Source: a virus | Taxonomy: Duplodnaviria; Heunggongvirae; Uroviricota; Caudoviricetes | Direction: 5' to 3' (one strand) | Virus record (IMG/VR): IMGVR_UViG_2671180821_000007 | DNA: 11,368 nt | Shown: piece by piece, positions 7,883-8,388 of the stretch | Position numbering within the stretch: the stretch's first letter is position 1 | Layout: each line of letters begins with the position of its first letter | The notes under the pieces: model-generated | Told to the model about the DNA's origin: nothing | Seen by the model: only the letters and a program-made list of their open reading frames with translations | The model's database searches: none | Program-made: the position numbers and the translations under genes

Positions 7883-7985
7883 AACGGCTCCTCGTTTACG
7901 TTGTTGGTTAGAAGCCCTGCGAGTGGTAACGACACTTGCGGGGCTTCGTCGTTTCAATTGCTGAATTGCATGTATCAGCACTTGT

Positions 7986-8039
7986 GGTATTCACATTACA
8001 TTTAGGTGAATACCATTTCAAGTCTTTTTTGGTATTCAC
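7986..8039. promoter_or_regulatory. divergent control region with three copies of GGTATTCAC (putative operators) overlapping a predicted leftward promoter
   Basis: GGTATTCAC at 7986..7994, inverted copy GTGAATACC at 8006..8014 (dyad with 11-bp spacer), direct copy at 8031..8039. On the minus strand TTGAAA, 17 nt, TAATGT places one half-site in the spacer and the other just after the -10. Confidence 0.55.
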
Positions 8040-8082
8040 TTTTGTATTACACTGCATCCCGTTATTAATGGGAGGTGCAAAC

Positions 8083-8388
8083 ATGTCCAGGAGTTCTGTT
8101 AACAATAAGTCACAGCAACTGAATGCCAGATTTCCACATGAAGTAGTGAGTGGCATTGAGGCATCCCTACAGCCAGGGGAAACTAAAGCGAATTTTATAG
8201 TTACGGCTGTACGCGGTGAGATCGCCAGGCGCCAGGCAGAAGGAAGTGGAGAAAATCCCCTTGTGTCTTCACTGGATGCCCTAGCTAATGTCGAACAAAT
8301 CGGCATCAAGGCAGCGGAGGAAATCGGGCAGCTTATCACCGTTGCACGCGAAGAACTCCAGCGCCGCAAGGCCAAAGAATCAGAATAA
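8083..8388 (+). CDS. YlcI/YnfO-like (DUF3950) small protein, candidate DNA-binding regulator, divergent from the replication operon
   Basis: ATG at 8083 preceded by GGGAGGTG. Segment LNARFPHEVVSGIEASLQPGETKANFIVTAVRGEIARRQ resembles the RFP...NF...RR pattern of E. coli YlcI as I recall it. The track ORF from 7936 has extra upstream codons without an RBS. Confidence 0.5.
   Translation: MSRSSVNNKSQQLNARFPHEVVSGIEASLQPGETKANFIVTAVRGEIARRQAEGSGENPLVSSLDALANVEQIGIKAAEEIGQLITVAREELQRRKAKESE

What the first reader, a model, noticed from the sequence alone, without database searches (positions are those of the whole stretch)
7883..8388. Divergent control region with GGTATTCAC operator repeats and a YlcI/DUF3950-like candidate repressor
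The 200-bp region between the replication operon (leftward) and the YlcI-like gene (rightward) holds a dyad GGTATTCAC-N11-GTGAATACC plus a third direct copy. The dyad overlaps a plausible leftward promoter (TTGAAA, 17 nt, TAATGT). The layout resembles the divergent repressor/replication switch of SaPI-type islands, with the DUF3950 protein in the repressor position. As far as I recall, a dedicated repressor of this type has not been defined for Gram-negative satellites, so this is a candidate master-switch module.
Basis: partly seen in the sequence, partly recalled or inferred. Interest (0 to 1): 0.6.

Follow-up and report, generated by a model that had tools for sequence, protein, structure and literature searches.

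The report
Swappable repressor-operator switch in a satellite
A small, uncharacterised YlcI/YnfO-family protein in an enterobacterial phage satellite very probably represses the satellite's replication operon by binding three repeats in the divergent promoter region. Its DNA-reading part and the repeats are swapped together between relatives, which makes it a concrete candidate for the repressor never defined in Gram-negative satellites.

Summary
TGGTATTCAC occurs three times exactly, at 7985-7994 (+), 8006-8015 (inverted) and 8030-8039 (+). The first two copies sit on a leftward sigma-70-type promoter (TTGAAA, 17 nt, TAATGT) whose position is conserved in relatives.

The rightward gene (8083-8388) belongs to the YlcI/YnfO family. 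It probably has an Arc/Mnt-like ribbon-helix-helix (RHH) N-domain and a long C-terminal helix.

The comparative evidence is strong. About 45 relatives from at least 8 genera share the layout of 3-4 boxes and two divergent promoters. The box sequence differs with the predicted beta-strand (about 12 types). Five types recur in different genera with identical boxes and diverged spacers.

One relative (L015) matches the window at 92-100% on both sides but at only about 50% over 7883-8232, which is the intergenic region plus codons 1-50. The boxes do not follow AlpA, the Icd-like protein, the replication initiator or the origin iterons.

Most likely this is a specificity-swappable repressor-operator cassette that shuts off the replication operon and regulates itself. 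Binding, the repressor role and the induction route are untested. No paper in the searched library describes it. This copy sits in a satellite damaged by two insertion sequences.

The parts
7985..7994 (+). Box 1 (TGGTATTCAC; 11-nt form GTGGTATTCAC from 7984). It overlaps the -10 edge and the predicted start site of the leftward promoter.
   Evidence: Exact copy. A box at about -90 from the ATG is present in almost all relatives.
8006..8015 (-). Box 2 (inverted copy; GTGAATACCA on the + strand). It lies inside the 17-nt spacer of the leftward promoter.
   Evidence: It sits at about -66 in relatives and within the spacer in 14 of 19 loci.
8030..8039 (+). Box 3 (direct copy). It lies between the leftward -35 and the rightward -10.
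   Evidence: It sits at about -45 in relatives.
8016..8021 (-). Leftward promoter -35 (TTGAAA).
   Evidence: TTGAC(n) lies at the same distance from the ATG in relatives.
7993..7998 (-). Leftward promoter -10 (TAATGT), 17 nt from the -35.
   Evidence: Relatives have TAAnnT at the same place. It was not called by the generic scan.
8045..8050 (+). Probable rightward promoter -10 (TATTAC, preceded by TG). It is weak in this type.
   Evidence: In position it matches TGTGTATAAT / TATACT / TATATT, which end 29-32 nt before the ATG in relatives.
8083..8388 (+). YlcI/YnfO-family gene (101 aa). Residues 1-55 are the predicted ribbon-helix-helix DNA-binding domain, with strand Q12-L-N14-A-R16-F-P18. Residues 59-100 form a long helix, probably for oligomerisation.
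7883..8232 (.). Specificity cassette: the intergenic region plus codons 1-50. It is the block exchanged between relatives.
   Evidence: Against L015 and L014 the window is 92-100% identical on both sides and about 46-64% identical inside this block.
7685..7882 (-). Icd-like gene (65 aa), the first gene of the operon controlled by the leftward promoter.
   Evidence: NCBIfam NF033153, E = 5e-18. It is present as the first leftward gene in almost all relatives.
7911..7947 (-). Conserved GC-rich hairpin in the leader RNA of the leftward operon. Its function is unknown.
   Evidence: (z = -3.2).
8446..8622 (+). orf58, an arginine-rich 58-aa product probably co-transcribed with the RHH gene. It is an accessory gene.
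   Evidence: phrog_21027, E = 8e-13. It is present only in E. coli-like relatives.
8687..8706 (+). Terminator-like hairpin ending the rightward transcription unit.

Best explanation
**What it is.** The region 7883-8388 is a repressor-operator cassette of a phage-inducible chromosomal island (PICI-type satellite).

**The protein.** The 101-aa YlcI/YnfO-family protein has an Arc/Mnt-like ribbon-helix-helix N-domain. It most likely dimerises so that residues 11-17 form a two-stranded sheet that reads the major groove. Its long C-terminal helix probably joins dimers into a higher oligomer.

**How it acts.**
- It binds the TGGTATTCAC boxes.
- Boxes 1 and 2 have centres 22 bp apart, so they lie on the same face of the helix. 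They cover the spacer, the -10 and the start site of the leftward promoter.
- A bound protein would therefore exclude RNA polymerase. That would silence the Icd-like, DUF4222, primase and downstream operon, keeping the island from replicating.
- Box 3 lies just upstream of the protein's own -10, giving self-regulation.

**Specificity.** It resides in codons 1-50 together with the boxes. The two are exchanged as one unit, as in the immunity regions of lambdoid phages.

**Shown and inferred.**
- Shown from sequence: the anatomy, its conservation, and the co-variation with exclusion of the other island proteins.
- Inferred: binding itself, the sign of regulation, oligomerisation, and how repression is lifted.
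- Candidates for relief are convergent AlpA-driven transcription through the gene, the Bro-N/AntA-type proteins encoded between alpA and this gene in many relatives, or a helper-phage protein.
For: 1. **Conserved architecture.** Three to four boxes lie at about -90, -66, -45 and -20 from the ATG, around two divergent promoters. This holds in about 45 loci from Escherichia, Yersinia, Klebsiella, Enterobacter, Erwinia, Pantoea, Photorhabdus, Xenorhabdus and others.
2. **Boxes follow the predicted strand.** Five types recur in different genera with identical boxes and diverged inter-box spacers:
   - QLTTVRV: E. coli and Photorhabdus/Xenorhabdus.
   - QSLTARI: E. coli, Enterobacter and Klebsiella.
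   - (K/R)QISIRI: E. coli and Klebsiella.
   - QMTT(L/I)RV: E. coli and Yersinia.
   - QQLNARF: the window and Yersinia.
3. **Mantel tests**:
   - Box sharing against strand identity: r = 0.44, p = 1e-4.
   - Against C-domain identity: r = 0.06, p = 0.24.
   - Against Icd-like identity: r = 0.11, p = 0.12.
4. **Mosaic.** L015 shares the window's Icd-like gene, hyp106, DUF4222 gene, primase and origin iterons at 92-100%. It has another strand type and other boxes. The divergent block is exactly 7883-8232.
5. **Exclusive association.** In IMG/VR, all 17 contigs with the 31-nt form of the dyad carry a QQLNARF protein 98 nt downstream.
6. **Fold.**
   - The N-domain model has pLDDT 81: an extended segment followed by two helices.
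   - hhalign puts residues 8-30 in register with Arc 5-27 (P = 0.004-0.005).
   - Q12, N14 and R16 align with Arc Q9, N11 and R13, which are the base-contacting residues by established knowledge.
   - Variability peaks at positions 12-15 and 17, while helix B is invariant.
7. **Alternative cassette.** At the same slot, an O157:H7 island carries a different 57-aa protein that matches the PHROG 'Arc-like repressor' (E = 1.5e-6). It has its own GGTAATTACC palindromes.
Against: - No experiment exists: binding, repression and oligomeric state are all inferred.
- The intergenic region and codons 1-50 are physically adjacent, so part of their joint inheritance is simple linkage.
- The full-length model was poor (pLDDT 71) and found nothing with Foldseek.
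- In this type the expected fourth box is missing and the rightward -10 (TATTAC) lacks the conserved final T. Self-regulation here may therefore be weak or different.
- AlpA over-expression alone induces a model Gram-negative island (PMC6092414). Any repressor must be subordinate to AlpA or bypassed by it.
- I could not establish whether that model island (EcCICFT073) carries this module.
Confidence: 0.7

Rival explanations
1. The repeats are binding sites for the island's replication initiator (the primase/Rep protein). It would autoregulate its own operon through partial iterons, as in iteron plasmids.
For: The origin iterons downstream of the primase (CTGTTCACC, about 9 copies at 3770-3975, with two CTATTCAC variants) share the TTCAC core with GGTATTCAC.
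Against: - Identical boxes occur with four different iteron sets and three initiator families: CTGTTCACC with D5_N, TAACCCGCA with DUF927, and AAGTGAG or AAGTGGGGA with AAA_25.
- The same primase and iterons occur with a different box type in L015.
Confidence: 0.02
2. The repeats are AlpA sites, through which the known activator turns on the replication operon.
For: AlpA is the established activator of Gram-negative islands and acts on island promoters (PMC6092414, PMC11773190).
Against: - The window's AlpA is 97% identical to that of L032, which has different boxes.
- The window's box type occurs with AlpA variants only 26-55% identical to each other.
- The boxes sit on the core promoter (spacer and start site), which is a repressor position and not an activator position.
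Confidence: 0.04
3. The joint inheritance is only linkage. The boxes are read by a helper-phage or host protein, and the YlcI-like protein does something else.
For: - The intergenic region and the N-terminal codons are contiguous, so any divergent block contains both.
- There are no binding data.
Against: - All 3-4 copies in one region change in concert between types, which requires a matching change in a binder.
- The only variable protein segment that follows them is residues 1-50.
- Within same-type cross-genus pairs, boxes and strand are kept while spacers and other N-domain residues drift.
- The dyad was not found in phage-like contigs apart from next to this gene.
Confidence: 0.1
4. The gene pair (RHH gene plus orf58) is a type II toxin-antitoxin or partition-type cassette that only autoregulates itself.
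For: - RHH antitoxins and ParG-type proteins autoregulate through short repeats.
- The only Pfam hits are weak ones to a VapB-type family (PSK_trans_fac).
- A small basic ORF follows the gene.
Against: - orf58 is absent from most relatives that keep the RHH gene and boxes.
- No toxin or ParA family matches.
- Two of the three boxes lie on the promoter of the divergent replication operon.
Confidence: 0.05
5. The repeats are a chance feature of an AT-rich spacer.
For: Low-complexity sequence raises the chance of repeats. 17 of 20,000 shuffles reach three copies of a 10-mer.
Against: p is about 1e-3 in this window alone. In addition there is positional conservation and type-specific replacement in about 45 relatives.
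Confidence: 0.01

Closest known systems
Mnt and Arc repressors of the phage P22 immI region
   Same: - A small ribbon-helix-helix repressor.
- The strand motif Q-x-N-x-R-aromatic-P-x-E-V is in register with Arc.
- The operators lie on the core of one of two divergent promoters.
- A C-terminal helical extension could join dimers, as in Mnt.
   Different: - No significant sequence homology.
- Box centres are two helical turns apart (22-23 bp) and not one.
- The controlled operon is a satellite's replication operon headed by an icd-like gene, not an antirepressor gene.
- Specificity is hypervariable, with about 12 types.
Stl/Rpr master repressors of SaPIs and other Gram-positive PICIs
   Same: - Divergent from the replication operon, in the same relative place in the island.
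- A candidate for keeping the island quiescent.
- Allelic diversity between islands.
   Different: - Stl proteins are larger helix-turn-helix proteins unrelated to this one.
- stl is co-directional with int, whereas here the gene is convergent with alpA and int.
- Relief by a helper protein is proven for Stl and unknown here.
- Gram-negative islands also need the activator AlpA.
Immunity regions of lambdoid phages (cI/cro with OR and OL)
   Same: The DNA-binding specificity and its operators are exchanged between otherwise near-identical genomes as one mosaic block.
   Different: - A different fold (RHH and not HTH).
- A single regulator gene.
- Only the N-terminal domain is swapped, while the C-terminal domain stays conserved.
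YlcI (DLP12) and YnfO (Qin) of E. coli K-12 prophages; NCBIfam NF041551
   Same: The N-terminal 42-55 residues are homologous. The prophage YlcI in L001 has the same ...RNIRFPNPMIEQI... pattern.
   Different: - Prophage YlcI/YnfO are single-domain proteins of 55-77 aa, encoded near cos and the terminase genes.
- They have no assigned function.
- The satellite form adds a conserved C-terminal domain of about 45 aa. It forms a small Enterobacterales clade, with about 15 clusters at 50% identity.
P1 immI (c4-icd-ant) and P4 CI RNA immunity
   Same: An icd-like first gene follows a structured leader RNA. The HE-PICI paper reports C4/isrK-type RNAs in some Gram-negative islands (PMC10111431).
   Different: No C4 or isrK match in this window at E <= 1. 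The control element supported here is a protein-operator pair.

Membership tests
YlcI/YnfO family (NCBIfam NF041551) | Match to the 42-residue N-terminal model above the curated cutoff | tested here: met
   60.3 bits against a cutoff of 30, E = 1.3e-16, residues 9-50.
DUF3950 (Pfam) | Match to the Pfam model | tested here: not met
   No DUF3950 hit at E <= 0.1 for the window protein or at E <= 1 for 20 family members.
Ribbon-helix-helix (Arc/MetJ/CopG) DNA-binding proteins | Strand-helix-helix fold | tested here: inconclusive
   - The N-domain model (pLDDT 81) has an extended segment 13-18 and helices 19-28 and 35-53.
- The monomer model cannot show the intersubunit sheet.
Ribbon-helix-helix (Arc/MetJ/CopG) DNA-binding proteins | Significant profile match to an RHH family or a solved RHH structure | tested here: not met
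   Only sub-threshold hits: PSK_trans_fac E = 0.0015-0.018 in 14 of 20 members, Arc by hhalign P = 0.004-0.005, and PDB profile searches with nothing better than E = 0.006-0.11.
Ribbon-helix-helix (Arc/MetJ/CopG) DNA-binding proteins | Specificity carried by the N-terminal strand, with helix B conserved | tested here: met
   - Entropy peaks at positions 12-15 and 17.
- K9, S10, R16, P18 and residues 36-51 are (near-)invariant.
- Box type follows strand type.
Ribbon-helix-helix (Arc/MetJ/CopG) DNA-binding proteins | Operator made of short repeated boxes on one face of the helix | tested here: met
   Three exact 10-nt boxes with centres 22 and 23 bp apart. Relatives have four boxes.
PICI master repressor of the Stl/Rpr kind | Divergently transcribed from the replication operon, with operators on its promoter | tested here: met
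PICI master repressor of the Stl/Rpr kind | Homology to Stl/Rpr (HTH) and co-direction with int | tested here: not met
   No HTH or Stl family match. int and alpA lie on the opposite strand, convergent with the gene.
PICI master repressor of the Stl/Rpr kind | Loss of the repressor, or a helper protein, derepresses the island | not testable with these tools
   This needs genetics in an intact relative.
Iteron-type initiator autoregulation | Promoter repeats share sequence with the origin iterons and change with them | tested here: not met
   The same boxes occur with four iteron sets, and the same iterons occur with two box types.
Type II toxin-antitoxin module | An obligatory downstream toxin gene | tested here: not met
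   orf58 is absent from 23 of the relatives examined, and no toxin family matches.
Gram-negative PICI / capsid-forming PICI (context of the module) | int, alpA, primase, origin with iterons, and a few capsid genes, mostly co-directional, in about 10-15 kb | tested here: met
   int 10130-11368, alpA 8734-8943, primase, iterons, SSB, ClpP-type protease and capsid. Close relatives are annotated likewise and lie in tRNA or prophage late-gene sites.

The most novel reading that the evidence does not exclude
**Reading.** Enterobacterial phage-inducible islands, both classical and capsid-forming, carry a previously unrecognised immunity-type layer.
- It is a hypervariable ribbon-helix-helix repressor with cognate operators.
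- It defines a dozen or more mutually non-cross-reacting groups.
- It holds the replication and late operon off until the AlpA pathway, an island-encoded Bro-N/AntA-type antirepressor, or a helper protein removes it.

**Consequences if true.**
- It would revise the current 'activator only' model of induction in Gram-negative satellites.
- It would give the YlcI/YnfO family its first function.
- It would predict satellite-satellite immunity and incompatibility.
Probability: 0.35. Interest if true: 0.75.

Novelty: new member of a known kind. Interest (0 to 1): 0.6.

Why it matters
**The open question.** Gram-positive satellites are controlled by a repressor that a helper-phage protein removes. 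For Gram-negative islands only the activator AlpA is known. The literature calls the existence of a repressor unclear and the difference a mystery (PMC6092414).

**What this module offers.**
- It is a concrete, widespread candidate. Parts of this 1.1-kb stretch match 1,558 of 5,426 complete E. coli genomes.
- Single protein variants are seen on hundreds of contigs.
- It comes with a ready test: natural specificity variants with matched operators.
- It would assign a function to an uncharacterised family (YlcI/YnfO).

**Annotation gaps.**
- The alternative 57-aa cassette in O157:H7 is not annotated at all.
- Spurious genes are called on the opposite strand at this locus.

**Practical use.** The natural set of small orthogonal repressor-operator pairs could also serve as regulatory parts.

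Tried and rejected
- **Rfam** at E <= 1 over the whole window gave only two spurious plant microRNA matches on the origin iterons. There was no C4 or isrK RNA.
- **Generic promoter scan** did not call either divergent promoter. They were placed by positional conservation instead.
- **PDB sequence and profile searches** gave no RHH hit. There was one weak match of residues 45-86 to the Hef (HhH)2 domain (E = 0.006) and one to 3no7 (E = 0.11).
- **tblastn against 50,697 phage records** gave no match.
- **Locating the model island EcCICFT073.** Two guesses at its coordinates returned a prophage and unrelated chromosome. Whether the model island carries the module remains open.
- **Initiator-binding idea.** It was prompted by the TTCAC core shared with the origin iterons, was tested, and was rejected.
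- **AlpA and the Icd-like protein as specificity determinants.** Both were tested and rejected. This holds although the Icd-like protein hits two PHROG families labelled 'transcriptional repressor'.
- **RNAalifold on a MAFFT alignment of the leaders** recovered only the base of the hairpin, because the upper stems do not align. Single-sequence folds show the hairpin in every relative.

Full report
**1. Context**

The window is a damaged phage-inducible chromosomal island of an enterobacterium. Most genes are on the minus strand:
- an integrase (10130-11368);
- an IS1 copy (9058-9825) with a 9-bp target duplication;
- alpA (8734-8943);
- an Icd-like gene (7685-7882), a hypothetical gene (7372-7692) and a DUF4222 gene (7066-7365);
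- a D5_N/DUF5906/Pox_D5 primase split by an IS3-family element (about 4297-5536);
- an origin-like iteron field (3770-3975);
- SSB, a ClpP-type protease and a capsid gene.

Only two genes face the other way: the YlcI/YnfO-family gene (8083-8388) and a small basic ORF (8446-8622).

The closest complete E. coli relative is about 89% identical over 7600-8700. It is a satellite embedded in the portal gene of a lambdoid prophage. This is the configuration described by Tommasini et al. (PMC10111431).

**2. The observation**

TGGTATTCAC occurs three times exactly: at 7985-7994, inverted at 8006-8015, and at 8030-8039. A 10-mer present three times arose in 17 of 20,000 dinucleotide shuffles of the 200-bp intergenic region.

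TTGAAA is at 8021-8016, the spacer is 17 nt and TAATGT is at 7998-7993. Box 2 lies in the spacer, and box 1 covers the -10 edge and the likely start site.

The generic scan missed this promoter. In 14 of 19 relatives, however, the best leftward promoter lies at the same distance from the rightward ATG and reads TTGAC(n), 17-18 nt, TAAnnT. A rightward -10 ends 29-32 nt before the ATG in relatives (TATAAT, TATACT or TATATT, preceded by TG). In the window it is the weaker TATTAC at 8045-8050.

**3. The protein**

NCBIfam places residues 9-50 in YlcI_YnfO_N (E = 1.3e-16). Pfam DUF3950 is not matched.

Homologues of about 100 aa occur across Enterobacterales. At 50% clustering the family is small. 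It has about 15 two-domain clusters plus many single-domain proteins of 55-65 aa.

The evidence for a ribbon-helix-helix N-domain is convergent but individually weak:
- The motif Q12-L-N14-A-R16-F-P18-H-E-V aligns in register with Arc Q9-F-N11-L-R13-W-P15-R-E-V (hhalign P = 0.004-0.005).
- A VapB-type family is hit below threshold in 14 of 20 members.
- An N-domain model (pLDDT 81) shows an extended segment followed by two helices.

Variability across 104 homologues peaks at positions 12-15 and 17. K9, S10, R16, P18 and helix B (36-51) are nearly invariant. That is the pattern expected if the strand reads the bases and helix B holds the backbone. It is the opposite of what a helix-turn-helix reading helix would show.

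Residues 59-100 are modelled as one long, confident helix. This is plausibly an oligomerisation element, as in Mnt.

**4. Comparative test**

I collected about 45 loci from three sources:
- one-genome-per-species contigs;
- exact-protein look-ups;
- E. coli records.

All share one layout. In order it runs: divergent Icd-like gene, GC hairpin, box, box, leftward -35, box, rightward -10, box, ribosome-binding site, ATG. The boxes lie at about -90, -66, -45 and -20.

The box sequence differs by type:

| Strand type | Box sequence |
|---|---|
| QQLNARF | GTGGTATTCAC |
| QLTTVRV | GTGTGTTTCA |
| QSLTARI | GTGTAAG |
| (K/R)QISIRI | GTGTGATT |
| QMTT(L/I)RV | GTGAGATATA and GTGATATACA |
| the K-N types | GTGTGTATT or GTGTGCAT |

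Five types recur in different genera with the same boxes, while the sequence between boxes has diverged.

A motif taken from one locus finds on average 3.5 copies in loci with at least 6 of 7 identical strand residues, and 0.53 in others. Mantel tests on box sharing gave:

| Compared with | r | p |
|---|---|---|
| Strand identity | 0.44 | 1e-4 |
| C-domain identity | 0.06 | 0.24 |
| Icd-like identity | 0.11 | 0.12 |

There is also a fine-scale case. The N14G variant (QQIGARF) has GTTCAC where the N14 types have ATTCAC. This rests on a single G14 locus.

**5. Excluding other binders**

- **Mosaic block.** L015 is 92-100% identical to the window from 6683 to 7882 and from 8233 to 8383. It is only 46-64% identical over 7883-8232. 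It therefore shares the Icd-like gene, hyp106, the DUF4222 gene, the primase and the CTGTTCACC iterons, but it has the QLTTVRV strand and GTGTGTTTCA boxes.
- **Replication initiator.** The window's box type occurs with DUF927, D5_N and AAA_25 initiators and four different iteron sets. This refutes the iteron-type autoregulation idea that the shared TTCAC core had suggested.
- **AlpA.** The window's AlpA is 97% identical to that of L032, which has other boxes. The window's box type occurs with AlpA variants 26-55% identical.
- **Icd-like protein.** It is nearly identical in three different box types.
- **Exclusive association.** In IMG/VR, all 17 contigs with the 31-nt form of the dyad have a QQLNARF protein 98 nt downstream. 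Eight other matches with different spacing are unrelated palindromes.

**6. An independent cassette in the same slot**

In an O157:H7 island (L044) the slot holds an unannotated 57-aa protein, MSTPLEKRSPPYQMRLPEDF.... It matches the PHROG 'Arc-like repressor' (E = 1.5e-6). It has two GGTAATTACC palindromes, one of them on its own start codon. This supports the view that the position is reserved for a small RHH regulator with private operators.

**7. Mechanism**

Most likely, dimers bind each box through the strand. The invariant R16 perhaps reads the invariant GTG, and positions 12 and 14 read the variable part. The C-terminal helix then ties dimers together across boxes two helical turns apart.

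Occupancy of boxes 1 and 2 would occlude the leftward promoter and keep the replication operon silent. Box 3 (and box 4 in relatives) would regulate the gene's own promoter.

The anatomy, its conservation and the specificity mapping are shown. Binding, the sign of regulation and oligomerisation are inferred.

How repression is lifted is open. alpA is convergent with the gene, and I saw no convincing minus-strand terminator between them. AlpA-driven read-through could therefore both silence the gene and enter the operon. Many relatives encode Bro-N, AntA or ORF6N proteins between alpA and this gene (also listed in PMC13612085). These domains are typical of antirepressors. The window has none.

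**8. What is known**

- Fillol-Salom et al. 2018 (PMC6092414) showed that AlpA is an activator and left the existence of a repressor open.
- The capsid-forming island paper (10.1101/2022.09.08.507074) and the EcCIMP1 paper (PMC11773190) again rely on AlpA. The 'repressor' in the EcCIMP1 paper is a PerC-like accessory protein.
- The helper-embedded satellite paper (PMC10111431) defines a dynamic Bro zone with possible immunity RNAs.
- YlcI/YnfO appears in the searched library only as a label in gene lists.
- I found no description of this module. The library covers open-access papers and preprints only.

**9. Verdict**

It is a new member of a known kind: a small RHH repressor with operators on divergent promoters, exchanged as an immunity-like cassette. 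It sits in a class of elements where no repressor has been defined.

This particular copy lies in an island disabled by IS1 and IS3 insertions, so it is best studied in intact relatives.

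Noticed in passing
window 3770-3975: An origin-like field of about 9 CTGTTCACC iterons (with two CTATTCAC variants) lies just downstream of the primase. In relatives the iteron sequence changes with the initiator family: TAACCCGCA with DUF927, AAGTGAG or AAGTGGGGA with AAA_25, and GGTAGACAG with a 584-aa D5_N primase. Rfam reports it as spurious plant microRNA hits.
   Followed up: yes
window 4297-5536 and 9058-9825: An IS3-family element splits the primase gene (N-part 5537-7084, C-part 4000-4296). 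An IS1 copy with a 9-bp target duplication (AACCATGCT) sits 115 bp upstream of alpA, between alpA and int. The island is probably immobile.
   Followed up: partly
window 7883-7986, minus strand: The leader RNA of the replication operon has a GC-rich hairpin (7911-7947). The hairpin is present at the same place in all 17 divergent relatives, with different stem sequences. It is followed by the conserved UCUAACCA and by a small hairpin around the Shine-Dalgarno. No Rfam family matches, and the function is unknown. Its place before an icd-like gene recalls P1 c4-icd.
   Followed up: partly
window 8446-8622 (+): orf58 encodes an arginine-rich 58-aa product (RKRRRRK) that matches phrog_21027 (unknown function). 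It follows the RHH gene only in E. coli-like relatives, and it also follows the alternative Arc-like cassette of O157:H7.
   Followed up: partly
L044 about 7330-7510 (E. coli O157:H7 SS52, NZ_CP010304.1): An unannotated 57-aa Arc-like gene with two GGTAATTACC palindromes occupies the slot of the YlcI-like gene. The RefSeq annotation instead shows a partial 'Icd-like' pseudogene on the opposite strand.
   Followed up: partly
window 7908-8723 (-); L028 1101-2387; L038 1098-2585: A long stop-free frame runs antisense to the RHH gene (271 aa in the window). Gene callers turn it into 428- and 495-aa 'genes' in some relatives. This is probably an artefact that can hide the real small gene.
   Followed up: no
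window 8215-8340 (protein residues 45-86): The conserved C-terminal domain weakly resembles the (HhH)2 domain of Hef (PDB 1x2i, E = 0.006). The motif is L-x-x-V-E-x-I-G-x-K-A-A-E-E-I. AlphaFold models it as one long helix.
   Followed up: no
window 7685-7882 (-): The Icd-like protein matches two PHROG families labelled 'transcriptional repressor' (E = 1e-23 and 7e-18). It does not co-vary with the boxes, and its role as first gene of the operon is unknown.
   Followed up: partly
L009 (Xenorhabdus vietnamensis) 5191-5490 and 9824-10123: Two copies of the whole module lie in opposite orientation within 5 kb, which suggests two adjacent satellites. Both have the same strand type and nearly the same boxes.
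   Followed up: no
L050, L054, L058, L069, L070 (IMG/VR metagenome contigs): A different palindrome, TGGTATTCA-tatgcctgatac-TGAATACCA, recurs in several large viral contigs that have no YlcI-like gene. It appears unrelated to this module.
   Followed up: no
window 2369-2596 (-): A 75-aa ORF lies just upstream of the protease and capsid genes. By eye it has a strand-helix-helix-like pattern (SATVHIDAGTMEKLERYQ...), but it has no Pfam match.
   Followed up: no
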